IMG/VR virus record: IMGVR_UViG_3300021062_000021
Span: 1 to 51,678 of that record
Length of the DNA stretch: 51,678 bases
Source: a virus
Taxonomy: Duplodnaviria; Caudoviricetes
Reading direction: 5' to 3' (one strand)
Each line of letters starts with the position of its first letter. Position 1 is the stretch's first letter. The position numbers and the translations under genes were made by a program. Under the pieces are notes generated by a model. It saw only the letters and a list, made by a program, of their open reading frames with translations, was not told the DNA's origin and made no database searches. Shown here one piece after another: positions 1 through 51,678 of the stretch.

Positions 1-14
1 GGATCGTCTTCATG

Positions 15-140
15 GTTTGCCTATAGAGAATTAGTCGATTCGACGTCCAGGGGCCTCGTTCGCTGGCGGCAGACTCATCTTGTGGGGTGCCGCCATGAGC
101 AACTCGAACCAGCCCCATAGGACGCTTATGGGAACAGCCA
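15..140. repeat. Terminal direct repeat, left copy (126 bp), indicating a circular or complete genome
   Basis: GTTTGCCTATAGAGAA...GGAACAGCCA is identical to 51553-51678. Confidence 0.95.
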
Positions 141-375
141 CCGGCCAGAGGGCAAAGTGCACGAACACAAGCTCCTTGTGCATCAACTCACAGGCCCAGT
201 GATAGCAGTGGTAGCCCTCCCGGCCGCCGTGCTGTTCTTTCCGGTGGACACCGATTCTCCATGCCCGAAACGAGGCGGCGAGTAACCCGACGAACAGATA
301 GCCAATAATCGCCAGCGTCACAATCATTCGTCTCTCCTCATTCGTCAGGTCAGACCTTCTCTTTTCCGGTGCCAC
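31..375 (-). CDS. Small membrane protein (true start may be downstream, MIVTLAII)
   Basis: Two hydrophobic segments, including a WP motif common in small phage membrane proteins. Confidence 0.6.
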   Translation of the reverse strand: MAPEKRRSDLTNEERRMIVTLAIIGYLFVGLLAASFRAWRIGVHRKEQHGGREGYHCYHWACELMHKELVFVHFALWPVAVPISVLWGWFELLMAAPHKMSLPPANEAPGRRID

Positions 376-622
376 CGCAGGCCACGCAAGCCTTCGGGGC
401 TGGCGGGGACAGCTTGTTCACGACGCCCATCAGCTTCTCCGCATCTACTCCGCACATCAGAAGGGCCTCATGGGCCACACCCCCAGTCTCGAACATCAGC
501 GCAATGAGGACATGCTCCGTCCCAAGCATCTCCGATCCGCGCTCTCTGGCGATCCTGTAGGCGTCCCGCATCACCTTGTCCATCCTTGGGGACTGACTCA
601 TCTGACTCATTTCAATCCTCAC
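350..622 (-). CDS. Stand-alone Clp N-terminal (Clp_N) domain protein with C-terminal CxxCxGxG
   Basis: AYRIARERGSEMLGTEHVLIALM..GGVAHEAL matches the ClpA/B/C N-domain repeat. Confidence 0.75.
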   Translation of the reverse strand: MRIEMSQMSQSPRMDKVMRDAYRIARERGSEMLGTEHVLIALMFETGGVAHEALLMCGVDAEKLMGVVNKLSPPAPKACVACGGTGKEKV

Positions 623-623
623 A

Positions 624-773
624 TCAACGCATCAACACGAAACGGTCCTTGTGCCCGCAGCACTCAAGGCAATGGAGCGAGGCCCAGTCCCCGTTCCACT
701 CGTCGGCGCAGGTGCCGAGATTAACGTCGTCGTGGTCGCAATCACAGCACCCATGCGGGGCGGCGTAACCCAT
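624..773 (-). CDS. 49-aa Cys-rich peptide
   Basis: Manual translation MGYAAPHGCCDCDH...CLECCGHKDRFVLMR fills the gap in the operon. Confidence 0.5.
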   Translation of the reverse strand: MGYAAPHGCCDCDHDDVNLGTCADEWNGDWASLHCLECCGHKDRFVLMR

Positions 774-794
774 GCGTCAATCCCTACTAGTTAC

Positions 795-1040
795 TAGCAC
801 ACTTTGTAGCCGTGGCGGGATTCCAACCCCGCTCCCTACGTCCGGACAGGATGCCGCCCGGCTTATTCGGGCGGTCTGAGCTAACACGATCCATTCCGGA
901 GCCTCCAAGCCCAGGTACAAACCTCGGCCTCAGTTTCCCCAACCACCGCGTAACCCCTCCTTGGGCTCTACCCGTGTCTCTGTCAGAGGGACGGAGTTGG
1001 CTTCTCCCTTGGCCGCTCCTCACGGCTACAAAGTGTGCTA
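795..1040 (-). ncRNA. 246-nt structured tRNA/tmRNA-like RNA closed by a 20-bp stem
   Basis: Perfect inverted repeat 795-814/1021-1040; T-arm-like GCGGG-GTTGGAAT-CCCGC stacked on the closing stem; several internal hairpins. Confidence 0.65.
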
Positions 1041-1113
1041 TGCCCCCGGCAGGACTCGAACCTGCATTTGTCTCCTTAGAACGGAGCTGCCGTTCCAGTT
1101 CGGCCACGGGGGC
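1041..1113 (-). tRNA. tRNA-Arg(TCT), no encoded CCA
   Basis: Cloverleaf GCCCCCG/CGGGGGC, D arm GCCG/CGGC, anticodon loop GTTCTAA, T arm GCAGG-TTCGAGT-CCTGC. Confidence 0.88.
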
Positions 1114-1147
1114 GTTCATTCGTCTATCCTCGTTCCGCTGATCTCTG

Positions 1148-1747
1148 TTAGACCAATGAACGTCGCAGGTCCGCGACCCACTTGTTTCGGGCGGCGGTCC
1201 GCTCGTTCTCCTTTCTGACCTCTTCGGTGTACCTCTCGATCCTGTCGTTCAATTCCTCAATCTGGTCCGCTCTCCACTGCTCGCCGGTTCTGATGCTGGC
1301 CTTGTCGAGGTAGTAGGTCCCCGGCTGAGCGTCGAAGCGCATCGTCTCGTCAAGCTGCTGGATCATGAAGTCCTTGAGTCCCTGATGGTCCGGCGTTGGA
1401 GGCTGCCAGTCGGCCACCTGCGAACGCATCGCCAGTAGACGGTCCCGGACGGCCCTGCACTCGTCTACGTGCTTCTGGTGGGCAGCCAGGAGCCTCGAAC
1501 GCTCCTCCCGCTCCTCCTCGTTGCAACGCTGCCATGTCAGCGACGTGACCCGGGCAAGCTCGGCCTTTGCCTTCACCAGTTCCTTCTCGTAGAAGTCGGA
1601 GGGCTTAAACTCTTCGGGGATCGGGGCGTCCAGGGCGTCGTCCCGCATCATGACTAGGGCGCCGAAGTTTCTGGCGCACCGAAGGGCGAAGGTCTTGAAG
1701 TCCGTCACCTTGCCATCGACCACGTCCGCCGTGTATCCCGTGGGCAT
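1148..1747 (-). CDS. Conserved phage hypothetical protein (MPTGYT-start, coiled-coil)
   Basis: 199-aa ORF with GGAGG RBS; N-terminus MPTGYT..F..FAL.CAR.FGA resembles a common phage family. Confidence 0.8.
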   Translation of the reverse strand: MPTGYTADVVDGKVTDFKTFALRCARNFGALVMMRDDALDAPIPEEFKPSDFYEKELVKAKAELARVTSLTWQRCNEEEREERSRLLAAHQKHVDECRAVRDRLLAMRSQVADWQPPTPDHQGLKDFMIQQLDETMRFDAQPGTYYLDKASIRTGEQWRADQIEELNDRIERYTEEVRKENERTAARNKWVADLRRSLV

Positions 1748-1888
1748 CCTGTCCTCCGAAAAAGTGTCTAAGTCGAGCCGGTTGTTCTACGAGAGATACT
1801 TTTCCAACTCAGCCCGCCGCTCGGGCGTCAGCCCCAGCTTCAGGAACTCCTCCTTGCTGTCGAAGACTTCGACAGCCCCGCCACACTG

Positions 1889-2125
1889 TCAGCCGTGGCC
1901 GCTGGAATCCGACCATTCGGAGGCGTGGACGTACTTGCCGTTCTTGAGGCGGAAGATCACCTCCGACGAGGTGTCGTCGTAATTTGACCGATCGCCAGTC
2001 TCGTCGGAGTAAAGCACCACCTCGATGTCGGCCTCAGTGAAGTCGTACTCGATCCTGTGATCGCTGCAATCGGCGGCGGCACCAACAACGGCCATGGCGC
2101 CAGCCGGGGTCAGTTCTTCGCTCAC
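1889..2125 (-). CDS. Hypothetical acidic protein
   Basis: ORF overlaps the neighbouring stop in the operon. Confidence 0.55.
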   Translation of the reverse strand: MSEELTPAGAMAVVGAAADCSDHRIEYDFTEADIEVVLYSDETGDRSNYDDTSSEVIFRLKNGKYVHASEWSDSSGHG

Positions 2126-2412
2126 TTGGCCCCCTTAGACGAATCGCTGGAATTGTCGCTGTCGGTATCGACGCCGGGAAGGCGCGGCGGGATCGCGTTG
2201 AGGATCTCCTCGAGAGCCCGCATCCCGTTAACCCTGACCTTCCAGGCCGCCGAGCCAGCCTCATACCCGCCGAACGTGTGGGTGCAGGCGTACCGCTTGC
2301 AGCCCTTGTCGCACGTCGAGCCCATGAACTCGTGATCTTCCCTGAGATCCTCGAGCAACTCCCGCAGGTGGTGCGCCAGTACATCCCGGATTTCGACCTT
2401 TGCGTTTGTCAT
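2122..2412 (-). CDS. Hypothetical protein
   Basis: ATGA-coupled operon ORF. Confidence 0.6.
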   Translation of the reverse strand: MTNAKVEIRDVLAHHLRELLEDLREDHEFMGSTCDKGCKRYACTHTFGGYEAGSAAWKVRVNGMRALEEILNAIPPRLPGVDTDSDNSSDSSKGAK

Positions 2413-2678
2413 GAATCACGCTTCGGATACCACGCGCCCGTATAGGGCGTGGTGCTCCGCTCAAGTGCCTTGGTCAAATCATTCACCAGCCGAACCCGAT
2501 CCTCGGAGAGCGACAGCGCCACGGCGGTAATCGCGTACTCCCAGGGCACCTTGCCCATCAGGTGCATCTGGAGGGCGTGGAACAGGTACGGGCACTTCTT
2601 AGCCCGCTCCTTGATCTCATCCATGTTGGACTTATGGAGCAGCTCCCAGTCCGGTCCGTCTTCATTCGTTTTTGTCAC
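2409..2678 (-). CDS. Hypothetical protein
   Basis: Operon ORF. Confidence 0.6.
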   Translation of the reverse strand: MTKTNEDGPDWELLHKSNMDEIKERAKKCPYLFHALQMHLMGKVPWEYAITAVALSLSEDRVRLVNDLTKALERSTTPYTGAWYPKRDS

Positions 2679-2685
2679 GGTTCAT

Positions 2686-2964
2686 CTACTCCCGGTCGTC
2701 TCCGACTTCGGGCATCTCGAACTCGATGGGGGCCACCGATGATTTGTCCTTGTCGAACTGTCTGGCCCACTCGTCAGCCGCTCGCGGAAGCCGGAAGGCC
2801 CGCTCCCCGATGTAGACCATGGGCATCTCAACGATGACCTCGACGTGCCCCATATCGTGAAGGGCGCAGGCAATCGCGCAACTCTCGTCACGCTCGGGCT
2901 CCCCCTCGTCGATATGCTTCTGCTCGACCTTGACCTTCATAGTGACTCTCTCCGAATAGCTCAT
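2686..2964 (-). CDS. Hypothetical protein, likely paralog of 4531-5016 (start approximate)
   Basis: KVKVEQKHID...SCAIACA...FD motif. Confidence 0.65.
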   Translation of the reverse strand: MSYSERVTMKVKVEQKHIDEGEPERDESCAIACALHDMGHVEVIVEMPMVYIGERAFRLPRAADEWARQFDKDKSSVAPIEFEMPEVGDDRE

Positions 2965-3332
2965 CACTCTGCCATGTAACAATCGCGGCAAGTCTCGAAC
3001 GTGTCCTGCTTGATTAGTCCGCACACGTCGCACTTGTGGCCGGGGCCGTCGTCGGCCAACATTCCATGCACGTCCTTTGTCTTGGGCTCATGGAACCGCT
3101 TTAAGGCGGTAGGCCGAAGAGCCTTGTACGAGATATTGATCGCCCGGAACCGGATCTCCACCAACTCCTCAACGTTCGCCCCGGCAGGAAGCGCATTGAT
3201 CTCCTCCAGAGCCTTCCGATATTCATCGTTCTGAAGAAGGGCAGCGGACAGTTTGGCGTTGACCTCTTGCCACTCCGTCCAGCAAGCCGCGTCGGGGGAG
3301 CAGTCGCCGCCGTGCTTCACACAGTAACTCAT
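2964..3332 (-). CDS. Hypothetical Zn-finger/coiled-coil protein
   Basis: CxxC pairs and YRKALEEI. Confidence 0.6.
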   Translation of the reverse strand: MSYCVKHGGDCSPDAACWTEWQEVNAKLSAALLQNDEYRKALEEINALPAGANVEELVEIRFRAINISYKALRPTALKRFHEPKTKDVHGMLADDGPGHKCDVCGLIKQDTFETCRDCYMAE

Positions 3333-3333
3333 G

Positions 3334-3570
3334 CTATTGCCCGTCCTTGTACCCGTTGTATTCCTTCACCTTGATCTTCCGCAGTTCAGCGATGATCTTT
3401 CGTTCTGCCGCGTCCATCCATTCGCGCAGTTGCTTGTTCGTCGGCGTCTTGCCGGGCGTGACGCCCTGGATCTCATCCTCCCATGCGCGGGAGAACAGCC
3501 CGGCGAGGGTATCCCGCTCGATCCAGTCCAACCGGCGCATGGCTTTCTCGGCTCTCGTCATTTTCGCCAT
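3334..3570 (-). CDS. Hypothetical protein
   Basis: Operon ORF. Confidence 0.6.
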   Translation of the reverse strand: MAKMTRAEKAMRRLDWIERDTLAGLFSRAWEDEIQGVTPGKTPTNKQLREWMDAAERKIIAELRKIKVKEYNGYKDGQ

Positions 3571-3572
3571 AG

Positions 3573-3839
3573 CTAAGAACTCTGTACTTCCTCTTTGGCC
3601 GTGAAGACCGGGTGGGACTCAACGAACACGGTGTACTTCCGCGTCTTCCCATCCAGGTCGATCACGAAGACTTCGCAGTCGGAGCAGTAGTCGAAGTTGC
3701 CGTGATTCCGCTCGACGAACTTCTCCGCCGCATCGCCAGCGTCGTAAGCCTCGACAGTCGTGGGATCGTCCCTCCCGTTCCACCCTTCCGTCCAGACCTT
3801 GAATGCCGCGCTCATACTGTGGCCTTTCTTATTGGTCAT
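3573..3839 (-). CDS. Hypothetical protein
   Basis: Operon ORF coupled to the methyltransferase stop. Confidence 0.6.
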   Translation of the reverse strand: MTNKKGHSMSAAFKVWTEGWNGRDDPTTVEAYDAGDAAEKFVERNHGNFDYCSDCEVFVIDLDGKTRKYTVFVESHPVFTAKEEVQSS

Positions 3840-4288
3840 CCGACCTTCGCTTTACTCTCGGCGGGTGGCCGATACACGACCACCGCAGAGGGGAAGGGGG
3901 CCGAGTTCGTCGCGTCCCCGAACTTCAGCCGCCCCCTTACGAACCTGATTTCCGCGCCTACCCCGATGCACAGGTCTTGGAACCAGGCCGTATCGACGCG
4001 GGCCGGGACCAAGCACACCACGGTTGCCCCTTTCTGGCTCTCCTCGTAGGCTTTCGCCATCCACTTAGGCAGGTCTCCCCCATAAGGCGGGTTCATCCAG
4101 CAAACCGCTGGCGCCCACCGCTGCATGAGCCCGTTCGAGTTCATGTCAAAGAACCGATCGCACTTGTGGTTCTTCTCGTCGGCGCAGACGTCAAGCTGGA
4201 AGCCGAACTCCTTATCGAGTTCCTTGAAGAACCCGAGTGGAGTAGGCCAGTCGCAGGACTGGCTCTTGAACATGGCTTCCTTACTCAT
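3836..4288 (-). CDS. Phage DNA N6-adenine methyltransferase (phage Dam-like family)
   Basis: W.TP..F..LD.EF.F.LDVCA, WMNPPYG, VCLVPARVDTAWF, GRLKFG..NSAPFPS. Confidence 0.92.
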   Translation of the reverse strand: MSKEAMFKSQSCDWPTPLGFFKELDKEFGFQLDVCADEKNHKCDRFFDMNSNGLMQRWAPAVCWMNPPYGGDLPKWMAKAYEESQKGATVVCLVPARVDTAWFQDLCIGVGAEIRFVRGRLKFGDATNSAPFPSAVVVYRPPAESKAKVG

Positions 4289-4310
4289 CCGTCAAAGCCC
4301 TTTCAGTCGA

Positions 4311-4517
4311 TCAGCGAACCAATAACCCAAGGTGCTTACACTTCTCGTAAGCTTGTTCTCTCTGGGAGTCCCTGTTCCCGTCGAAGTCCCCAAGGCCAAC
4401 CTTGTCGTAGAGGCTGACCGTACACCAACCCGTTTCATGTGGGCGAAGGTGCTGGAGACAGTAGACCCACGTTCCAAGTTCGTGGTCATCGGTCGCCTTT
4501 GTTTGGTTCACGATCAA
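4311..4517 (-). CDS. Hypothetical protein (WVYC.QH.RPHETGWC)
   Basis: Operon ORF with Cys/His motif. Confidence 0.55.
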   Translation of the reverse strand: MIVNQTKATDDHELGTWVYCLQHLRPHETGWCTVSLYDKVGLGDFDGNRDSQREQAYEKCKHLGLLVR

Positions 4518-4530
4518 ACCTCGCTTTCGT

Positions 4531-5016
4531 CTACTCGTCTTTCCCGACGTAGACCGTCTGGCTCCTAAGGCCGTCCGTCAGGTGGTACAGGACCGGCTTC
4601 CGGTACTTCTTCAGACCGCGAGGCTTCGTGTGATTGCCACCCGTCTTGTTCTTGCGATCCAGGCGCTCCCTATCGCTCACGGGGGAAAGCTGATACTCGC
4701 CTGGGCGGAAGTCTCCGGTACGGTCGAAGCACACGATTTCCCGAGTGATACTCTCGGGGACGCGGTAGCGGACGGCGAGGTTTCCCTTCACCAGAAAGGC
4801 CATGCGGGGGAAGACGAGGGCGGAATCGCACACTCCCTCGCGTTCACAGGCCCGTGCCATCGCGCAAGAATCGTGGGTCTTCACTTTGGCCTTTTCCACG
4901 TCGGACTTCTTGACCGTGATCTTGATGGGCTTGTTTGCGTCAGCCACCCGGTCAACCTCGGGGAAGTAGTGCTGGACGCGCCGCACGATCAGGGGAAGCC
5001 TCTGAGTGTCGCTCAT
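4531..5016 (-). CDS. Hypothetical protein, likely paralog of 2686-2964
   Basis: ITVKKSDVEK...SCAMARAC...FD motif; GGAGAG RBS. Confidence 0.7.
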   Translation of the reverse strand: MSDTQRLPLIVRRVQHYFPEVDRVADANKPIKITVKKSDVEKAKVKTHDSCAMARACEREGVCDSALVFPRMAFLVKGNLAVRYRVPESITREIVCFDRTGDFRPGEYQLSPVSDRERLDRKNKTGGNHTKPRGLKKYRKPVLYHLTDGLRSQTVYVGKDE

Positions 5017-5053
5017 GTCTCTCTCCTATAAAAAGTGTGTTAGAAAATTCGGT

Positions 5054-5443
5054 TCATCCGACCTGTTCTTTATTCAGAACCTTGAGGCGCGCTTCCGCGA
5101 CATCAAGTAGCCTCACGGCCTCTATCAACTGGGCGTTGTCGGCGTGGGAGAGATTCTTGTTGGCCTCTAGGTGCTTCGCAGACGCGACGTACGCCTCTGC
5201 CGCCAGCACAACGGCGTTCCTAGCCCGATTGACCGCGTATTGGGCGTTTCTGAACTCTTCCTCGCTCTTCCAGCGGGCGCTACGCGCTTCGTCCCTCGCC
5301 TTCACGGAGGAGGGGGCGTGTTGCTTGCACCAGCCCTTGCCCTCCTCGGTGACGCTTGCCTTCCGTGTGCATTGCGATAGGTGGTAGGTGCCGAACATCC
5401 CGGTGTGCGAACACCTAGCCGGGTCACGCTTCGTCACGTTCAT
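5054..5443 (-). CDS. Hypothetical Zn-finger protein (C..C..WCKQH)
   Basis: Operon ORF. Confidence 0.65.
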   Translation of the reverse strand: MNVTKRDPARCSHTGMFGTYHLSQCTRKASVTEEGKGWCKQHAPSSVKARDEARSARWKSEEEFRNAQYAVNRARNAVVLAAEAYVASAKHLEANKNLSHADNAQLIEAVRLLDVAEARLKVLNKEQVG

Positions 5444-5446
5444 AAA

Positions 5447-5770
5447 TCATCCCTTCGACGCTTCGCTCTTTACGGGCGCGGACCCCAAGACCCGCTCAGC
5501 CATGCAACCGGCGCAGCCCTCTAGGCGCGGCTCGTCTCCCTTGGGGTGGACAAGTTGGCGGATCTCCTCAAGGGCCTTGCGGTAACGCTCTGCTGCCCAG
5601 CCAGCCAACGCACGGCCCAAGGAAGGTCCAGAACGTCGGATCTCGTCCACCTTCGCGAGAGCGGCCGATTCTGCGCGTTGGCAGCGGCGGTTAAGCTCCG
5701 ACACCTTCTCCTTCAGCCGCGCATTCTCGGCTAGAAGCTCCATCGTTTCTTGCTCAGTGAGAGGCGTCAT
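5447..5770 (-). CDS. Hypothetical coiled-coil protein
   Basis: LNRRCQRAESA and RYRKALEEI segments. Confidence 0.65.
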   Translation of the reverse strand: MTPLTEQETMELLAENARLKEKVSELNRRCQRAESAALAKVDEIRRSGPSLGRALAGWAAERYRKALEEIRQLVHPKGDEPRLEGCAGCMAERVLGSAPVKSEASKG

Positions 5771-5785
5771 AGATCTCCACGTCGA

Positions 5786-5923
5786 TCAAAGACACTTCCC
5801 GCACCGCTCGCATGTAAACCGGTACATCGACTGCCAGCCGTTGAGCCCAGGGTAGCCCCCGACCCACTCCTCGAAACCGATGTGGCCCCGGAACCAGCAG
5901 ACGACTCTTTTGATGAGGTTCAT
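5786..5923 (-). CDS. 45-aa DUF1660-like Zn-finger peptide
   Basis: Manual translation MNLIKRVVCWFRGH...CERCGKCL. Confidence 0.55.
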   Translation of the reverse strand: MNLIKRVVCWFRGHIGFEEWVGGYPGLNGWQSMYRFTCERCGKCL

Positions 5924-5926
5924 AGG

Positions 5927-6133
5927 TTACTTAAACGAAAGCTCTTTCCCGTGGTGCATCACGCGCATCTTCACGCGGTCTATCCCGGCCTCTTCGTGCT
6001 GGTAACTCATGGTGTAGAGGGCGAACGCCTTCGCGTCCTTCTGATACCTGAAGGCTGCGACCGGCGCCCACTCTGTCCAGTTTCCGAGGCCATCAGTTGA
6101 TTGGCTCTCGACGATGTATTCCATGGCTCTCAC
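5927..6133 (-). CDS. Hypothetical protein
   Basis: AGGAGG RBS, operon ORF. Confidence 0.6.
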   Translation of the reverse strand: MRAMEYIVESQSTDGLGNWTEWAPVAAFRYQKDAKAFALYTMSYQHEEAGIDRVKMRVMHHGKELSFK

Positions 6134-6442
6134 TATCCTCCTTCGGCGTAATCCGCCGCCAACGGTTCCTCCGCAGTCGAGTTAATAACCTTTGGTCGTT
6201 ATTTTCTTGGGCCTATCCGCGCTTCTTGAGCATCTCGTTCTGCTGTTCAACGATAGCCAGTGCTTCCTCAGCTCTGCGCATCCAATCTGCCAACTTCTGA
6301 ACGACTGTGGAGAACAGCAACTCTAGGCACTTGTCGCACCCAGCCGCCATGTTGATAGCCGTCTCGTTCTTGGCAAACTTCAACTGAGCGCGGCAAGCGT
6401 CACAGGCTGGTATGCTTCTGGCCTGTTTTAGATCGTCCACGG

Positions 6443-6640
6443 CTACGCCCACTCCACTTCGACAACCTCTTCCAACGTCCCATCGTCCACAACCGAGGCG
6501 AGCGCCAGCTTCAGTTCGATGGCCTCTTCCTCGGTCATCTTGGCGACCAGCTCCCCGTTGGCGAAGAGGTTGATGAAGAACTTCCCTTCCGGGCCCTTCT
6601 TCGAACGCACAACCAGAATCTTCATAGTTCCTCCGTTCAT
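6443..6640 (-). CDS. Hypothetical protein
   Basis: GGAGG RBS before MKILVV. Confidence 0.55.
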   Translation of the reverse strand: MNGGTMKILVVRSKKGPEGKFFINLFANGELVAKMTEEEAIELKLALASVVDDGTLEEVVEVEWA

Positions 6641-6998
6641 TTGATGTGGCTCCTTCTTGCCAATCGTCTAATTCTGGGACATCCAGAAAATCCACTTGCC
6701 GCTGCCGACGTAGAACCAACTGCACCATTTACCCTTTGGCCACATAGGTACCCCTACTTGTCTTCGCCGATGATTTCGTTCGCAACGTTCTGGGCATTGA
6801 ACACGCGCTGGACTTTGACCTTGCACTCCTCGGCATCTGTGAAGATGTCGGCGGCGCAAGCATCCGACAGTTCCCGGAGGGCGGCGTGGGCGCACTCGAG
6901 ACATTTGGATTGATGCCGCTGAAGCTCCCCCTGGCTCTGCCTCTTGATCCCACACAGCGCGTTATAGGTCGTCATAGTGTCCTTGTCCTTCCTGCTCT

Positions 6999-7256
6999 TC
7001 AGACCTTCGCCGTTTTCTTGTCGCGCAACACGTTCAGGAGCCGCTCTGCGAGGCTGGCGAAATGCTCGGCGCTCGCCTTCCGGTCGGCGGCGTTTGACAT
7101 CCGGCAGGTCCCGTAGGAGGCGACTTCCTCCAGAATCGAGGCAAGTTCTTCGGCCGCGCCTCCGCGACCAGCCATGAGCGTGAAGTAGCAATCCATGTGA
7201 CCGTTCACGGCATCGTCACCACACACCCGGCATTCGTACTCGTTCTTCGCGCTCAT
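6999..7256 (-). CDS. Zn-finger hypothetical protein, first gene of the leftward operon
   Basis: GGAGG RBS; CRVC...H.DC. Confidence 0.65.
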   Translation of the reverse strand: MSAKNEYECRVCGDDAVNGHMDCYFTLMAGRGGAAEELASILEEVASYGTCRMSNAADRKASAEHFASLAERLLNVLRDKKTAKV

Positions 7257-7304
7257 CTCGTCCTCCGTTCTTTCGTCCTTGTCTTTATCTCAATCGCTAC
7301 CTAC

Positions 7305-7400
7305 ACAGACTATACGCCATCCGTATGAAAAAGTTTCAGAAAATCGCATACGGATTGCGAATATTTGTCAAAAAGTCTGGTTTTGAGCGTATAACTAGTG
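7305..7400. promoter_or_regulatory. Divergent promoter region with inverted operator ATCCGTATG / CATACGGAT
   Basis: 9-bp inverted repeat at 7319-7327 and 7347-7355; rightward TTGTCA(7365)..TATAAC(7390); leftward TATAGT -10 near 7310. Confidence 0.6.
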
Positions 7401-7401
7401 C

Positions 7402-7572
7402 ATGAGCAAAAAGGATCAGAAGATGGAAGACTCCCGCGAGAAGTGGTCCACGGTGGCGCTCCCCAGGGACATGGTGGAGCGGCTCCGGTCGGAGGCGAAG
7501 GCCCAAGACAGGAGCTTGTCCTGGTGGCTGCGCCATATCGTTGAGCAGCACTTCGTCAGCAGGGGCAAATAG
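7402..7572 (+). CDS. Ribbon-helix-helix (Arc/CopG-like) regulator, probably leaderless
   Basis: Manual translation MSKKDQKMEDSREKWSTVALPRDMVERLRSEAKAQDRSLSWWLRHIVEQHF; ATG 6 nt after the -10 box. Confidence 0.8.
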   Translation: MSKKDQKMEDSREKWSTVALPRDMVERLRSEAKAQDRSLSWWLRHIVEQHFVSRGK

Positions 7573-7575
7573 AAA

Positions 7576-7618
7576 GCGGGAACCGGAGGGCGAGGGAAAA
7601 TTAACCCTCCGGTCCCGC
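7576..7618. terminator. Hairpin between convergent genes
   Basis: GCGGGAACCGGAGGG / CCCTCCGGTCCCGC. Confidence 0.55.
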
Positions 7619-7860
7619 ACATGAGGAGACTTGGTATTCACTGGATCGCCCACACCAGGAAGACCACCAGGGCGACCATGAGCCCGAGCGCCAGCAGGAT
7701 CATCGGGACCCGCTCGGGATCGCGGTATCCCGGGCCGTAGTACGTGCGGTTAGGATCGAACTTCCTCACTGCTTCCTCCGTCTCTCCACAAGGCACAAAA
7801 TCGCCCACGTCAGGATTCCGCCAAGGATGCCTATGACGATGGGAAGCAGCCTTTCGACGC

Positions 7861-8079
7861 TCACGCTTCCACCCATTCGTCAGGCTTTGAAGATGGCTCC
7901 GCGCTACCCTCGCCAGCTTGCGCCGGCTGCTCTCGCGGTGGAACCATCAATATTTGCGCCGACCTCGCCCAGCCTCGCCCCTCGCATTCACGGCAGGTAA
8001 ACAGGAAGTTCGGGAAGTTCTTCCAGTTGAGCAGGAGCCCAACCCCGTCACAGATCCTGCAGACAACGGGAATAGGCAT
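7861..8079 (-). CDS. DnaJ-type CxxCxGxG Zn-finger small protein
   Basis: CRICDGVG ... CRECEGRG. Confidence 0.6.
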   Translation of the reverse strand: MPIPVVCRICDGVGLLLNWKNFPNFLFTCRECEGRGWARSAQILMVPPREQPAQAGEGSAEPSSKPDEWVEA

Positions 8080-8312
8080 CAGGCCACCAGCCAGTACCGA
8101 TAGACCTTGGATCCCGTCTCCGTGGTCTCCTGGTACTCGCAGGAGATCGACACGCCGTTGTGGCGTAGGGCGCTGACCTCAGTAGCCGGATTGAGAGCTC
8201 CCGAAGCGTCCGAAATCTCCTTCGTAGTCGCTCCCCTCGGGCCTCGCTCCCGGAGGAGGGCAAGGATCGCCTGGAGTCTCCTGGACTTTTCCAGCTTCGC
8301 AACGTGCATCAT
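8079..8312 (-). CDS. Winged helix-turn-helix protein
   Basis: ILALLRE.G..GATT.EI...VSALRHNGVSI...Y.Y.L. Confidence 0.75.
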   Translation of the reverse strand: MMHVAKLEKSRRLQAILALLRERGPRGATTKEISDASGALNPATEVSALRHNGVSISCEYQETTETGSKVYRYWLVA

Positions 8313-8413
8313 GGCCTCTCGTCTCCTTGCAGTTCAGGTGTCGGATTTCGTGATACGACCCGATCCCCTTTTCCGACAGGATCAGGTCCCCCTTGCGAAT
8401 AGGCCGCGAACAC

Positions 8414-8809
8414 TCAAGACACGTCCCTGACCAAATTGCTTTTCGTAACCGCATCTGTTCCCCTCTCAATCCCCACACTGACGGAAGCTCTCTCCGCTTC
8501 CGCGCCCTCGAACGACATGTAATGCAGCTCCATGACCCTGCGATCCTGGCTCCAGAGAGAATCAAGGATGCCTTTCAGGAAGTTGTCCCCGTCGAGCCGG
8601 GCCTTCCGTTTCCACGTAACGGCGATGCTGAGAACGGCTCTGGAATCAGCCGGGAGACTCTCCGGGATGCCGGCGAGATTGGCGAAAAGACGGACGGCCC
8701 GCTTCCAGTCGACGTAGCGCTTGTAGCGAGGATCGACCCATTTCTGGCGTTGGGTAGTCCTGACGTACCCCTGGAGGGGCCCGTCTACCTGAAACGTGTA
8801 GGTCTGCAT
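8414..8809 (-). CDS. rusA: RusA-family Holliday junction resolvase
   Basis: D.DN.LKGILDSL..(Q)DRRV motif. Confidence 0.85.
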   Translation of the reverse strand: MQTYTFQVDGPLQGYVRTTQRQKWVDPRYKRYVDWKRAVRLFANLAGIPESLPADSRAVLSIAVTWKRKARLDGDNFLKGILDSLWSQDRRVMELHYMSFEGAEAERASVSVGIERGTDAVTKSNLVRDVS

Positions 8810-8931
8810 TTCTCGCTCTCTCCTATCTCGGGGCTTGCGGCTCACCCTCCGCGAAGCCCCACGCCATCCCCGGTCTCACGGCCCTGACTGCTACCCCTCT
8901 CCAGATCCCCCGGGCCGGCTCCTGTTTGCGG

Positions 8932-9306
8932 CTACCCTAGCCGCTTCACGTCCATCCGAGTCGACTCCTCCCCGGTCTTCGTGTACTTCTCCCGGTCGGC
9001 GTCCGAAGGCTTTCCGCAAAGGCCGGTAGCCCACGCCTTCCAGTCGAAGGTTTCGCGTCCCTTGACCTTGGTGAAGAAGACCGCAAACTTGCCGGCCTTC
9101 GCCTGGTCCATGCCCCGGCAGACCTTGAGAATGTGCTTCCGCTTTTCCTCCAGCAGCCCCTCTAGCGCCTCGATCTCGGCCTTCATCTCGTGATAGGCCC
9201 GAAGATCCTCTTCCTTGAGCTCGGAGGACATGAAGAAGTCCAAAACCTGCTTGGCGCCTGGAGCATCGACTTCATCCTCGCTCATCTCTTCCCATTCGTC
9301 CTGCAT
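8932..9306 (-). CDS. Recombination-module hypothetical protein (resembles the C-terminal region of YqaJ-like proteins)
   Basis: GGAGG RBS; coiled coil followed by GRETFDWK. Confidence 0.6.
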   Translation of the reverse strand: MQDEWEEMSEDEVDAPGAKQVLDFFMSSELKEEDLRAYHEMKAEIEALEGLLEEKRKHILKVCRGMDQAKAGKFAVFFTKVKGRETFDWKAWATGLCGKPSDADREKYTKTGEESTRMDVKRLG

Positions 9307-9317
9307 GGCTGACCTCC

Positions 9318-9827
9318 TTACTCCTCCATCCCGTCGATGCCTTCCAGGGTGTACTGGTTCTGGCCTTGGTACTCGCTGACCGAATAGGTGATGGGAACCT
9401 GCTGATTCTTGCGCTCCTGGAGGTATGCGGCCTTCTTGGGGTTCCAGACGACGAGCCAGTTGTCGGCTCTGAGGGTGGGGAAGTGGCACTTGACCCCCAG
9501 CTTCCACCACTGCTTCTTGCCGTTCGTCCCGGTCTTCGGCTCCTTCGCCCAGGCCTTGACCGTCACAACATCGGCCTTGAGATCGGGACCGCTGCCTTCG
9601 GCCTGCTGAGGCTCGGGCTGAGGAGCGGGCTTCGGAGGAGGCGTGTAGGGTCCAGCCCCCTGGATCTTCTCCACGGGAGCGGCGGCTGGCACATGGCCGA
9701 AGCCCTTGATCAGATTTTCAACGATGGCGACTGCGGTAGCGGGATCCTCCGCGACCTTGGCGACCAGGAGATCCTTCGCGTAAGCCACCTTCATGGACAG
9801 GGGGAAGCCGTTGCCGTTCGTTTCCAT
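9318..9827 (-). CDS. Possible ssDNA-binding/OB-fold protein
   Basis: GGAG RBS; Pro-rich linker, beta-rich C-domain, acidic tail; lies in the recombination module. Confidence 0.45.
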   Translation of the reverse strand: METNGNGFPLSMKVAYAKDLLVAKVAEDPATAVAIVENLIKGFGHVPAAAPVEKIQGAGPYTPPPKPAPQPEPQQAEGSGPDLKADVVTVKAWAKEPKTGTNGKKQWWKLGVKCHFPTLRADNWLVVWNPKKAAYLQERKNQQVPITYSVSEYQGQNQYTLEGIDGMEE

Positions 9828-10008
9828 GGGCTATCTCCAAAGAATAAAGTTGGGGATCAGAAGGACAACCAAGAGGGGGAGGACCCCCGCCATGCGACGG
9901 AGGCCCTCCCGGTGAGGGTGGAACAAAGAATAAATCAGGCCGGTAGCGCGAGCAGAGGTAGCCACCGCTCCCACCGAAGCCGTGACTTCTACGGGCCTGA
10001 CAAAGTTC

Positions 10009-11137: not shown

Positions 11138-12052
11138 CTGTCGTCCCTGGTCGAGCTCCGCAAAGTTGCGGAAGAGTTTCTGGGAAGTCTGCTCGTCCAG
11201 GGATATTCTCGCGTCACCGTCTGGAATTACCGAAAGTACATTGAGAATTTCACGCTGCATCTCAGCACCGAAGGCCGAGATCTCAACCAGGTCGATCATG
11301 GCTGTCTGCTTCGCTGGATGCAGGCGATTCGGTTAAAAGGAGTCGGGGAGACATCGCTTCAGGGAAACAAGTCCGCAGTCTCGAGTTGGTACGAATGGCT
11401 TGTTAGGATTGGTCGCGTCGACCGCAATCCCATCAAGATGCTTGCCCCCATTAAGCTCAAGAAGACCATCCCGAAGCCGATCCCCGAAGAAGAGACCGCA
11501 AGCCTCCTGTCGAAGGCCGGCGAAGTGGAGTCGAAAGAGACGCTGAGAAACGTCGCCATCATGGAGCTTCTCTACTCGACGGGGCTCCGACGTGCAGAAC
11601 TGTGCGCTCTCGATCTATCCGATTTGAAGCTCGAAAGCGAGACACCTCATATCCTGGTCCGGTTGGCAAAGGGGAACCGCGAGGCTATCGCTCTCGTCAC
11701 CGAGAAGGCAAAGGCCGCGATTAAAGCTTATCTCCCGTGGCGGGATAGGGTCTGCCGTCGCACGGAGCGCCCGATGACCTTCCAGGCGTTATTCGTGACG
11801 AAGAAAGGCGCCCGAATGACCGGGGGCGACGTCTACCGCATGGTTCGAAAGCTGGCCGAAAAACTCCTGGGCCACAAAGTCACCCCTCACCAGTTCAGGC
11901 ACAGCTTCGGTACGGATCTCCTTAATCATGGCGTGGACCTCATGAGCATCAAGGAGCTCATGCGCCATGCGACACTCTCGAGCACGGAGAAGTATTTAGC
12001 CGTATCAAAAGAGCGCCTCAAGGCTCAGTTCATGCGTCATCCCAGAGCTTGA
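11138..12052 (+). CDS. XerC/XerD-like tyrosine recombinase (probable CTG start)
   Basis: GLRRAEL, KG, HQFRHSF, MRH..LSSTEKY and terminal HPRA; the frame stays open upstream of 11318 and encodes the N-terminal core-binding domain (GYSRVTVWNY). Confidence 0.92.
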   Translation: MSSLVELRKVAEEFLGSLLVQGYSRVTVWNYRKYIENFTLHLSTEGRDLNQVDHGCLLRWMQAIRLKGVGETSLQGNKSAVSSWYEWLVRIGRVDRNPIKMLAPIKLKKTIPKPIPEEETASLLSKAGEVESKETLRNVAIMELLYSTGLRRAELCALDLSDLKLESETPHILVRLAKGNREAIALVTEKAKAAIKAYLPWRDRVCRRTERPMTFQALFVTKKGARMTGGDVYRMVRKLAEKLLGHKVTPHQFRHSFGTDLLNHGVDLMSIKELMRHATLSSTEKYLAVSKERLKAQFMRHPRA

Positions 12053-51308: not shown

Positions 51309-51551
51309 TTAACCTCCCCTGTAAAAGCAGCAACAATGGTGGGAACAGCAGTGCCGGATTGCATGGCAGCACTTACACTCAGTTCCCCGGTGCAGATCGT
51401 CCATACACTTCTCGGTGTTTTGGTAGGCTTCAATGGCATCTGCCAACCCAAGAGAGACAGACGCCGGGTTCTTCCTAAGCTGATAGGCCGCACGGTGGAA
51501 GACGTCTAGAAGTAACTCCACCTGCTGCCTCGTGTAAGTTTCGTCGCTCAT
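51309..51551 (-). CDS. Hypothetical protein with Cys/His-rich C-terminus (MSDETYTRQQ)
   Basis: ATG at 51551; CKCCH..HCCSHHCCC. Confidence 0.55.
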   Translation of the reverse strand: MSDETYTRQQVELLLDVFHRAAYQLRKNPASVSLGLADAIEAYQNTEKCMDDLHRGTECKCCHAIRHCCSHHCCCFYRGG

Positions 51552-51552
51552 C

Positions 51553-51678
51553 GTTTGCCTATAGAGAATTAGTCGATTCGACGTCCAGGGGCCTCGTTCG
51601 CTGGCGGCAGACTCATCTTGTGGGGTGCCGCCATGAGCAACTCGAACCAGCCCCATAGGACGCTTATGGGAACAGCCA
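51553..51678. repeat. Terminal direct repeat, right copy
   Basis: Identical to 15-140. Confidence 0.95.

What the first reader, a model, noticed from the sequence alone, without database searches (positions are those of the whole stretch)
795..1040. 246-nt tRNA/tmRNA-mimic RNA fused directly to the 3' end of tRNA-Arg
Seen: a perfect 20-bp inverted repeat (TAGCACACTTTGTAGCCGTG) closes the element, which begins at the base right after the tRNA discriminator. On the minus strand a T-arm (GCGGG-GTTGGAAT-CCCGC) stacks directly on the closing stem, as in tRNA and tmRNA. The interior holds further stems (CCGCCCG/CGGGCGG, AGCCCA.GG/CCTGGGCT, GGAG..GGC/GCC..CTCC, TCCGGA x2). There is no CCA, no canonical anticodon arm and no obvious tag ORF. 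Inference: a processed phage ncRNA released by tRNA maturation, possibly a decoy for tRNA-targeting defence nucleases or a Y-RNA-like scaffold.
Basis: partly seen in the sequence, partly recalled or inferred. Interest (0 to 1): 0.75.

Follow-up and report, generated by a model that had tools for sequence, protein, structure and literature searches.

The report
Stem-closed RNA-like cassette after phage tRNA
A 246-base cassette closed by a perfect 20-base-pair stem sits flush against a phage tRNA gene and is most likely a rare, undescribed structured RNA rather than a tRNA mimic or a jumping element, though this cannot yet be proven.

Summary
A perfect 20-bp inverted repeat (795-814 / 1021-1040) encloses 206 bp and starts at the base after the discriminator of tRNA-Arg(TCT) (1041-1113, minus). 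Simulated sequences reach only 11-15 bp.

The element is single-copy in this 51.7-kb temperate soil phage. It matches no Rfam family. ARAGORN calls no tRNA or tmRNA in it at default thresholds. The phage's closest relatives (TerL 72%) lack it.

Its arm sequence is not a repeat family in 185,579 reference genomes, which argues against a MITE. A translated-ORF proxy search found two distant relatives (P0002, P0003). These share three internal blocks, including the T-arm-like hairpin, which is invariant. The outer closing stem differs between them. That is the reverse of what a MITE or an invertible switch should show. The ORF itself is not gene-like.

My best reading (about 0.45) is a new, rare structured RNA co-transcribed with the tRNA and bounded by a processing or protective stem. 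The specific tRNA/tmRNA-mimic claim is not supported: the loop has 8 nt, the folding model gives the hairpin P = 0.0003, and no model matches.

I could not fetch the relatives' DNA, so covariation is untested. No expression data were available.

The parts
795..1040 (-). Whole 246-nt cassette. It is read as RNA on the minus strand; RNA nt i corresponds to window position 1041-i.
   Evidence: Single copy in the 51,678-bp record.
1041..1113 (-). tRNA-Arg(TCT). Its discriminator is at 1041 and no CCA is encoded.
   Evidence: ARAGORN. Rfam RF00005, 56 bits.
1021..1040 (-). 5' arm of the closing stem (RNA nt 1-20).
   Evidence: pair I3: 20/20 complementary. Mean pair probability 0.97.
795..814 (-). 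3' arm of the closing stem (RNA nt 227-246). Only its inner ~6 nt look conserved in the relatives, judging from the translations.
   Evidence: In A1 the window reads TATKCASN where P0002 reads MASLFL... and P0003 reads MGLFL...
1000..1020 (-). Conserved block A (RNA nt 21-41, translated RSxQGRS).
   Evidence: Window versus P0002 in A1 and BLASTP.
895..939 (-). Conserved block B (RNA nt 102-146, translated GKLRxRFVPGxGGxG). It forms the apical part of the long central hairpin (RNA nt 85-163, window 956-878).
854..874 (-). 7-bp GC hairpin CCGCCCG-AAUAAGC-CGGGCGG (RNA nt 167-187).
   Evidence: P = 1.00. The translation DRPNKPGG is identical in P0003. In P0002 a 2-residue insertion falls in the loop.
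814..846 (-). Conserved block C (RNA nt 195-227, translated S-RRERGWNPA). It contains the T-arm-like hairpin GCGGG-GUUGGAAU-CCCGC at window 832-815.
   Evidence: R67-A75 are invariant in 3 of 3 sequences. The hairpin has P = 0.0003 in the ensemble and costs +4.7 kcal/mol if forced.
787..1023 (-). 78-aa ORF (P0001) that a gene caller placed over the element. I judge it spurious and used it only as a search proxy.
   Evidence: GC1/2/3 is 0.60/0.65/0.58 against 0.58/0.47/0.66 for genes, and the coding score is -0.095.
774..794 (-). 21-nt spacer between the cassette and the next ORF. It carries stop codons and a GGGA stretch 8 nt before the ATG.
   Evidence: Read directly.
624..773 (-). Downstream 49-aa Cys/His-rich ORF, next in the same transcription direction.
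   Evidence: No Pfam or PHROG match.
1148..1747 (-). Upstream 199-aa gene (phrog_8905, function unknown). It ends 34 nt before the tRNA.

Best explanation
The cassette is a non-coding RNA element belonging to a rare, undescribed family.

Proposed mechanism:
1. It is transcribed on the minus strand as part of the leftward early operon: 199-aa gene, then tRNA-Arg, then the cassette, then small ORFs.
2. Cutting the tRNA at its 3' end creates the cassette's 5' end.
3. The 20-bp terminal helix pairs both ends of the cassette. It then either shields the RNA from exonucleases or serves as a double-strand RNase (RNase III-type) site that excises the core and separates the tRNA from the downstream mRNA.
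4. The conserved core does the work, most likely by binding a protein. The core comprises three blocks, including an invariant GC hairpin with loop GUUGGAAU next to the terminal helix.

What is shown: the anatomy, its statistical significance, single-copy status, non-coding character, and the existence of two relatives with a conserved core and divergent outer stem.

What is inferred: transcription, processing, stability and any function in trans.
For: Anatomy and placement:
- The 20/20 inverted repeat far exceeds chance.
- It is flush with the tRNA 3' end.
- Among 236 phage tRNAs in 59 fetched sequences, only this one (1 of 236) has an arm of >=15 bp starting within 8 nt of the 3' end.
- All flanking genes are co-oriented. 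Of the 6 terminator-like sites found in 1-3000, only one is on the minus strand (2106-2089); none is between 1148 and 624.

Family evidence:
- phmmer with the translated element against 1,835,955,588 representatives gave 3 hits at E <= 0.001. One is the window's own P0001; the others are P0002 (53% identity over residues 7-78) and P0003 (82% over residues 49-76) (confirmed).
- In A1 the blocks RSxQGRS, GKLRxRFVPGxGGxG and RRERGWNPA are kept, while the part that translates the outer 3' arm is not.
- The three gaps between the window and P0002 fall in or next to predicted loops or internal loops (this mapping is my inference).

Non-coding character:
- GC2 is 0.65, outside the gene range of 0.38-0.56. 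GC3 is 0.58 against 0.73-0.82 in neighbouring genes. The coding score is -0.095 against mostly 0.1-0.38 for genes.
- BLASTP gives 37/75 identities but only 44/75 positives.
- The GUG start lies inside the perfect stem and has no upstream ribosome-binding site.

Against a mobile-DNA origin:
- Single copy.
- The 20-mer arm gave 0 hits in viral contigs.
- The 18-mer arm gave 2 single hits in 185,579 species genomes, and both lie inside protein-coding sequence that reads HGYKVC.
- No DDE_3 transposase in the phage.
Against: - No nucleotide sequence of any relative could be fetched, so no covariation test was possible.
- The family has only 3 members among about 15 billion predicted proteins.
- Without the closing stem, the interior folds only modestly better than shuffles: z = -2.49, with 4 of 200 shuffles as good.
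- The fold is ill-defined. The MFE structure has frequency 0.0003 and the ensemble diversity is 33.
- The strand asymmetry in energy is matched by the shuffles, so it reflects base composition.
- A 20/20 Watson-Crick stem with no G-U pair or mismatch is more typical of DNA-level repeats such as transposon ends or recombination sites.
- Both ends are TA, which fits a TA target duplication.
- Without the cassette, the tRNA would sit about 23 nt from the next ORF, so the cassette looks like an insertion.
- P0002 is recorded on 2 contigs, which could mean more than one copy.
- There are no loops of the common stable tetraloop classes and no match to any described RNA family.
Confidence: 0.45

Rival explanations
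1. A MITE-like or foldback selfish DNA element. Under this reading it inserted at a TA dinucleotide right after the tRNA, is carried passively, and is transcribed only because of where it sits.
For: - Perfect 20-bp terminal inverted repeats around a ~250-bp element.
- TA at both ends, compatible with a TA duplication.
- The cassette interrupts an otherwise compact spacing: 34 nt before the tRNA, and about 23 nt after it if the cassette is removed.
- Imperfect complementarity continues inside the arms. The two interior halves score 3 against a shuffle mean of -13.7, sd 8.5.
- The closest phage relatives lack it.
- P0002 is recorded on 2 contigs.
- MITEs do occur in viral genomes, though rarely: 0.01% of those surveyed (PMC11602168, passages read).
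Against: - Single copy in the phage.
- The 20-mer arm gave no hit in viral contigs. The 18-mer arm gave only 2 single hits in 185,579 species genomes, both inside coding sequence.
- No IS630-type DDE_3 transposase in the phage.
- In the three family members the internal blocks are conserved and the outer arm is not. This is the reverse of the usual MITE pattern (the expected MITE pattern is from my own knowledge).
- TA is its own complement, so it cannot be told apart from a 2-bp extension of the repeat.
- Only 3 family members were found among about 15 billion predicted proteins.
Confidence: 0.2
2. A purely cis-acting processing cassette, comparable to the intervening sequences of 23S rRNA. 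The long stem is cut by RNase III to separate the tRNA from the downstream mRNA, and the excised core is discarded.
For: - A perfect 20-bp duplex joins both ends of the cassette between a tRNA and an mRNA.
- rRNA intervening sequences are bordered by terminal inverted repeats that form long stems (28 bp in one studied case). RNase III excises them and the excised RNA is rapidly degraded (PMC4990558, passages read).
- Correia elements can bind RNase III and be cleaved or protected by it (PMC2649163, abstract only).
Against: - A mere cleavage site would not need 206 nt of interior, nor three internal blocks conserved at 80-100% at the translated level in distant relatives while the outer stem diverges.
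- The host and its RNase III specificity are unknown.
Confidence: 0.12
3. An invertible DNA switch (inverton). A recombinase flips the 206-bp core between the 20-bp repeats to change expression of the flanking genes.
For: - The anatomy, perfect 20-bp inverted repeats around ~200 bp in an intergenic position, matches what I recall of invertible promoters.
- The phage encodes a tyrosine recombinase at 11483-12013.
- Possible viral invertons have been suggested (PMC13501310, title and start of abstract only).
Against: - No sigma-70-like promoter on either strand in 1-3000.
- The interior is GC-rich: 0.631 against 0.565 for the window.
- The only recombinase found is about 10 kb away and looks like the phage integrase.
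- The conserved-core, divergent-arm pattern in relatives does not fit a switch.
Confidence: 0.08
4. One reading: a tRNA/tmRNA/Y-RNA mimic. The acceptor-like and T-arm-like helices would be recognised by tRNA enzymes or by tRNA-targeting defence nucleases.
For: - The T-arm-like hairpin abuts the 3' strand of the terminal helix with no spacer, as in tRNA.
- It is the only fully invariant block in 3 of 3 family members, and the ~6 nt of the stem next to it also look conserved.
- A cloverleaf-like four-way junction is reachable at +4.7 kcal/mol.
Against: - No Rfam hit of any tRNA, tmRNA or Y-RNA kind on the element at E <= 10.
- ARAGORN finds no tRNA at default thresholds and no tmRNA at default or 80% thresholds.
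- The relaxed tRNA call has no D-arm and A at position 33, and came together with two other calls that no default run makes, in 700 nt.
- The loop has 8 nt.
- There is no CCA, the terminal stem is 20 bp rather than 7, and ARAGORN calls no tmRNA, hence no tag reading frame.
- The hairpin has probability 0.0003 in the ensemble.
- No TROVE gene.
Confidence: 0.07
5. A real gene for a small Arg/Gly-rich basic protein of 78-83 aa.
For: - The same reading frame is open and was called as a gene in the window and in the P0002 record. The alignment gaps are in frame.
Against: - Codon-position GC and codon usage are unlike the phage's genes.
- Substitutions are mostly radical: 44/75 positives against 37/75 identities.
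- The start codon is inside a perfect 20-bp stem with no ribosome-binding site.
- P0003 shares only 28 residues and then diverges.
- By my estimate, open frames of this length arise by chance about 10% of the time per frame at this GC content.
Confidence: 0.04

Closest known systems
Phage T4 RNAC and RNAD, small RNAs from the T4 tRNA region
   Same: These are small RNAs transcribed from a phage tRNA gene region, with unknown biological role (PMC3014915, one passage read).
   Different: I made no sequence or structure comparison. This cassette is longer than I recall those RNAs to be. A perfect 20-bp stem closes it, and it starts at the very base after the tRNA.
Intervening sequences (IVS) of bacterial 23S rRNA
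   Same: A cassette bordered by terminal inverted repeats that form a long stem within a stable-RNA transcript. [quoted passage not shown]
   Different: IVSs sit inside rRNA helices, whereas this element follows a tRNA. RNase III cleavage here is only inferred.
Correia repeat-enclosed elements and other bacterial MITEs
   Same: Short inverted-repeat-bounded elements in intergenic DNA. They are co-transcribed and can bind and be cut by RNase III (PMC2649163, abstract). TA ends are possible here too.
   Different: Those elements are multi-copy, and as I recall their ends are the conserved part. This one is single-copy, its arm is not repeated in the reference genomes searched, and its relatives conserve the core rather than the outer arm.
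Theta (minimal HDV-like) ribozymes next to phage tRNAs
   Same: They are RNA elements found adjacent to viral tRNAs, and a role in tRNA 3'-trailer processing has been proposed (PMC10879173, passages read).
   Different: The HDV fold, as I recall it, needs the first ~7 nt to pair with a nearby internal segment. Here the only complement of the first 20 nt is the last 20 nt. No HDV-type Rfam hit was found. The published descriptor is in a supplement I could not open.
tmRNA and bacterial Y-RNA-like YrlA
   Same: A terminal helix formed by the 5' and 3' ends, with a T-arm-like hairpin directly next to its 3' strand.
   Different: No model match. There is no CCA, and ARAGORN calls no tmRNA, hence no tag frame. 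The loop has 8 nt, the stem is 20 bp, and the phage has no Ro/TROVE gene.
GOLLD and ROOL large phage RNAs
   Same: Structured phage RNAs that, as I recall, often lie near tRNA genes.
   Different: They are much larger. No Rfam match was found at E <= 10.

Membership tests
tRNA (Rfam RF00005 / ARAGORN) | Cloverleaf that scores above the family threshold | tested here: not met
   The only hit is the true tRNA at 1041-1113. Nothing matched on 795-1040 at E <= 10. The relaxed ARAGORN call at 806-891 lacks a D-arm and came with other calls that no default run makes.
tRNA-like T-arm | 5-bp stem with a 7-nt loop of the UUCRANY type (recalled) | tested here: not met
   The stem GCGGG/CCCGC is present, but the loop GUUGGAAU has 8 nt and carries G where C56 would be. 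Pair probability is 0.0003.
tmRNA | tRNA-like domain with a 7-bp acceptor stem and CCA, plus a tag reading frame | tested here: not met
   ARAGORN tmRNA mode found 0 genes at default and at 80% thresholds. No tmRNA family in Rfam matched at E <= 10. No CCA follows the stem.
Y RNA / YrlA with Ro (Rsr) | Model match, and a Ro/TROVE protein partner | tested here: not met
   No Rfam match. PF05731 TROVE gave 0 matches in the phage, with the control ringing in 2 of 14 genomes. A host-encoded Ro cannot be excluded.
MITE | Terminal inverted repeats of at least 10-15 bp | tested here: met
   20-bp perfect arms.
MITE | Target-site duplication flanking the repeats | tested here: inconclusive
   The only candidate is TA/TA, if the repeat is taken as 18 bp. 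TA is palindromic, so it equally extends the repeat.
MITE | Several copies, or a repeat family, in the phage or in cellular genomes | tested here: not met
   One copy in the phage. 0 hits for the 20-mer in viral contigs. 2 single hits in coding sequence for the 18-mer in 185,579 species genomes. The host genome may be unsampled.
MITE | Ends conserved among family members | tested here: not met
   Judged at the translated level only. The outer 3' arm differs in P0002 and P0003 while the core blocks are kept.
Inverton | Both orientations present in a population | not testable with these tools
   Only assembled contigs could be laid. They show one orientation, and contigs drop rare variants.
Inverton | Promoter inside the invertible segment and a recombinase nearby | tested here: not met
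   0 sigma-70-like promoters in 1-3000. The only recombinase found is at 11483-12013. The host's promoter type is unknown.
HDV-like / theta ribozyme | Nested double-pseudoknot fold that starts at the cleavage site | tested here: not met
   The first 20 nt pair only with the last 20 nt. No Rfam HDV-type match. The theta descriptor itself was not available because supplements are closed.
Retron msr-msd | Reverse transcriptase gene next to the inverted-repeat-bounded RNA | tested here: not met
   PF00078 RVT_1 gave 0 matches in the phage.
Structured ncRNA in general | Compensatory base changes across homologues | not testable with these tools
   Only the translations of two relatives are available. 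Their DNA could not be fetched.

The most novel reading that the evidence does not exclude
The cassette founds a new class of phage RNA that is made from a tRNA precursor. Its invariant hairpin, stacked on the conserved inner 6-7 bp of the terminal helix, forms an acceptor/T-arm-like minihelix. Host tRNA enzymes (RNase P, RNase Z, CCA-adding enzyme) or tRNA-directed defence nucleases would recognise this minihelix. The RNA would then act as a decoy or scaffold during infection.
Probability: 0.1. Interest if true: 0.75.

Novelty: new variant of a known kind. Interest (0 to 1): 0.42.

Why it matters
If the RNA reading is right, this is an undescribed structured RNA family that phages attach directly to a tRNA gene. 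Few such phage RNAs are known, and their functions are mostly unknown (T4 RNAC/RNAD, GOLLD, ROOL, theta ribozymes).

It would also offer a clean test case for how a tRNA 3' end and a neighbouring RNA are matured from one precursor.

If it proves instead to be a single-copy foldback insertion, it is an ordinary curiosity.

Tried and rejected
DNA-level homologue searches that found nothing:
- Phages collection, blastn with 501 bp: no match.
- Viral contigs, 20-mer arm: 0 hits.
- Viral contigs, 19-mer hairpin: one hit, L010. L010 is a levivirus-like RNA phage contig. A combined hairpin-plus-arm pattern again found only L010. Among 80 replicase relatives, only L010 itself (1 of 80) carries that hairpin sequence in its 3' end. 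I treat the hit as chance.
- Genome contigs, 18-mer arm: 2 single hits, both in coding sequence.

Synteny-based searches:
- Relatives of the 199-aa neighbour: 7 loci in viral contigs and 7 in metagenome contigs, at <=42% identity apart from a 24-residue fragment. None carries the element.
- TerL relatives: 0 of 5 records hold the element, 0 of 4 hold the 199-aa gene, and 1 of 4 has any tRNA.
- 31 viral loci with the identical 25-nt tRNA 3' half: 0 of 31 have the element downstream.

Protein-proxy searches:
- Minus-strand ORF: only the window's own call among 14 candidates.
- Plus-strand ORF: 0 of 13 candidates.
- Peptide scan of viral contigs with A1: 22 pattern matches, 0 confirmed.
- tblastn of P0002 against phages and plasmids: none.
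- Profile A1 against the genomes holding L011 and L012: 0 of 2.
- Profile A1 against 401 genomes of the phylum of G006: 2 weak hits, both spurious because they show no nucleotide similarity.

Sequencing runs:
- No RNA holder was listed. The 2 listed runs are DNA runs from soil metagenomes and may be the source of the window.
- Their contigs bridge the element unchanged and list no joint at the arms. Contigs cannot show rare inversions or excisions, so this says nothing about an inverton.

Readings I considered and rejected:
- Theta/HDV-like ribozyme, because the topology does not fit.
- Retron, because there is no RT.
- Intrinsic terminator, because no U-run follows the stem.
- attP, because the integrase is 10 kb away.
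- Relaxed ARAGORN 'tRNA-Leu' call, because it is of the quality of the other calls that appear only at relaxed thresholds.

Supplements of PMC10879173 (the theta descriptor) and PMC11602168 (the MITE lists) could bear on the ribozyme and MITE tests but are closed.
Full report
**What the window is.** The window is a complete IMG/VR virus record of 51,678 bp. Its ends repeat: 10-140 matches 51548-51678. The only listed sequencing runs that hold it are soil metagenomes. It encodes a tyrosine integrase at 11483-12013. Its large terminase is at most 38% identical to any cultured phage. Genes in roughly 1-10,000 run on the minus strand.

**Checking the observation.**
- ARAGORN and Rfam both place tRNA-Arg(TCT) at 1041-1113 on the minus strand.
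- The arms 795-814 and 1021-1040 are 20/20 complementary with 206 nt between them.
- This is the longest perfect inverted repeat with span <=540 in the window. In 100 Markov-1 simulations the longest arm was 11-15 bp.
- The element therefore begins at the first base after the discriminator.
- It ends 21 nt before the next minus-strand ORF (624-773). The upstream gene (1148-1747) ends 34 nt before the tRNA.
Only the window's (1 of 236) has an arm of >=15 bp. The next longest is 14 bp, in simple 41-nt hairpins.

**Folding.**
- The whole element folds at -125.3 kcal/mol on the minus strand (z = -6.25) and -113.5 on the plus strand (z = -7.36).
- Without the arms the interior gives z = -2.49 (minus; 4 of 200 shuffles as good) and -1.73 (plus).
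- The 12-14 kcal/mol strand difference also appears in the shuffles, so it reflects base composition.
- In the minus-strand ensemble the terminal helix continues as a rod: GGGA/UCCC, CCAACUCCG/CGGGGUUGG (P = 1.00) and UCCC/GGGA. The rod leads into a junction that carries a small hairpin, a long hairpin (nt 85-163) and the 7-bp hairpin CCGCCCG/CGGGCGG (P = 1.00).
It has P = 0.0003 and costs 4.7 kcal/mol when forced, which produces a cloverleaf-like four-way junction.

**Known RNA families.** Rfam 15 gives nothing on the element at gathering thresholds. At E <= 10 the only hit is a 20-nt hairpin match to Yfr1 with E = 1-2. ARAGORN finds no tmRNA at default or 80% thresholds. Its relaxed tRNA call at 806-891 lacks a D-arm and came with two other calls that no default run makes, in 700 nt. 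The phage has no TROVE, RVT_1 or DDE_3 domain.

**Is it a mobile repeat?**
- It is single-copy in the phage.
- The 20-mer arm is absent from viral contigs.
- The 18-mer arm occurs twice in 185,579 species genomes. Each is a single occurrence inside a protein-coding region that reads HGYKVC. I estimate about 17 chance hits for a random 18-mer in that collection.
- The TA at both ends could be a target duplication but equally just extends the repeat.
- Removing the cassette would leave the tRNA about 23 nt from the next ORF, so it does look like an insertion.
- MITEs were found in only 0.01% of the viral genomes surveyed (PMC11602168, passages).

**Relatives by context.**
- Relatives of the 199-aa neighbour do not carry the element: 7 viral and 7 metagenome loci, at <=42% identity apart from a 24-residue fragment.
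- The phage's closest relatives by terminase (72% identity, about 50 kb) lack the element, the 199-aa gene and any tRNA.
- None of 31 viral loci with an identical 25-nt tRNA 3' half has it downstream.

**Relatives by proxy.**
- A gene caller had placed a 78-aa ORF (P0001) over the element, so I searched with its translation.
- phmmer against 1.84 billion representatives returned P0001 plus two others. P0002 has 83 aa, comes from an NCBI source, sits on 2 contigs, and is 53% identical over residues 7-78 (E = 8.9e-6). P0003 has 86 aa, comes from a Logan contig, and is 82% identical over residues 49-76 (E = 6.7e-5). A profile search confirmed both.
- The alignment (A1) shows an invariant RRERGWNPA. 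This translates RNA nt 201-227, which is exactly the T-arm-like hairpin and its flanks.
- It also shows the conserved blocks RSxQGRS (nt 21-41) and GKLRxRFVPGxGGxG (nt 102-146).
- The region that translates the outer 3' arm is unrelated: TATKCASN versus MASLFL... versus MGLFL....
- The first two codons after the hairpin differ by one or two bases, so the inner ~6 nt of the arm seem to be kept.
- P0002's 2-residue insertion falls in the loop of the 7-bp hairpin. Its other two gaps fall next to internal loops of the long hairpin (my mapping).
- The 5' strand of the rod helix (SQLR in the window, SRCR in P0002) changes while its invariant partner does not. This slightly favours the hairpin over the rod, but the point is an inference from amino acids only.

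**Coding or not.** The ORF has GC1/2/3 of 0.60/0.65/0.58. Pooled genes give 0.58/0.47/0.66, and neighbouring genes have GC3 of 0.73-0.82. Its codon-usage score is -0.095 per codon, against mostly 0.1-0.38 for genes and -0.18 to -0.65 for most off-frame controls. P0001 versus P0002 gives 37/75 identities and 44/75 positives. The start codon lies inside the perfect stem. I conclude that the ORFs are translations of a conserved non-coding element.

**Interpretation.**
- A conserved core with a divergent outer closing stem is what structured RNAs show. It is the opposite of what I would expect for transposon ends or recombination sites.
- The element also abuts the tRNA, sits in a co-oriented operon, has no minus-strand terminator nearby and is non-coding.
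- I therefore favour a rare, undescribed structured RNA made from the tRNA-containing transcript (confidence about 0.45).
- The terminal helix would either protect both ends or be cut by an RNase III-type enzyme. rRNA intervening sequences (PMC4990558) and Correia elements (PMC2649163 abstract) are precedents for the latter.
- T4's RNAC and RNAD show that phage tRNA regions do yield small RNAs of unknown role (PMC3014915).
- Theta ribozymes show that phages place RNA devices right after tRNAs (PMC10879173). An HDV-type fold is excluded here, because the first 20 nt pair only with the last 20 nt.

**Limits.**
Covariation is therefore untested.
- The perfection of the stem and the TA ends keep the MITE reading (0.2) and the inverton reading (0.08) alive.
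- The tRNA/tmRNA-mimic idea fails every model test. It stays at about 0.07-0.1 only because its hairpin is the invariant block.
- No expression evidence was available.

Noticed in passing
L010:1-95 (minus strand): L010 is a 3,884-nt levivirus-like ssRNA phage contig. It encodes a maturation-like protein, a coat-like protein and a replicase with YGDD. Its 70-nt 3' UTR holds the same 20-nt hairpin as the window element and, 23 nt further on, CAAAGTGCTA, which resembles the window's arm end. Only L010 itself, 1 of 80 replicase relatives, has this hairpin sequence, so the match is probably chance.
   Followed up: yes
window 1787-2671; L017: A near-identical phage variant in the source sample swaps this ~885-bp stretch for ~980 bp of unrelated sequence. 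The evidence is joint 1786->2672 in run X1, and L017, which matches 1676-1786 and 2672-2771 at 100% but nothing in between.
   Followed up: partly
window 1148-1747; L005:3001-3962; L007-L009: The 199-aa phrog_8905 gene (function unknown) recurs next to tRNA genes. In L005 its relative is followed by two tRNA-Leu genes. A 52-residue similarity also lies inside 8-10-gene tRNA arrays in L007-L009 and L018-L019.
   Followed up: no
window 350-622 (-): A 90-aa protein that consists of a single Clp_N repeat (PF02861, E = 3.3e-10). It lies two genes downstream of the cassette. A standalone Clp N-domain in a phage might interfere with a host Clp protease.
   Followed up: no
window 624-773 (-): A 49-aa Cys/His-rich ORF immediately after the cassette, with no family match.
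   Followed up: no
window 11483-12013 (+); 10-140 and 51548-51678: A tyrosine integrase (PF00589, E = 5.1e-34) marks the phage as temperate. The record's ends repeat 131 bp at 99% identity.
   Followed up: no
G001, G002, G003 (records behind L021, L023, L022): The closest phage relatives (TerL 57-72%) have no tRNA gene at all and no phrog_8905 gene. The tRNA-plus-cassette module therefore sits in a mosaic, lineage-specific part of the early region.
   Followed up: partly
L005:3640-3725: By eye, a tRNA 3'-half-like sequence (T-arm and acceptor strand) lies after a sigma-70-like promoter and upstream of the two tRNA-Leu genes. ARAGORN does not call it.
   Followed up: no
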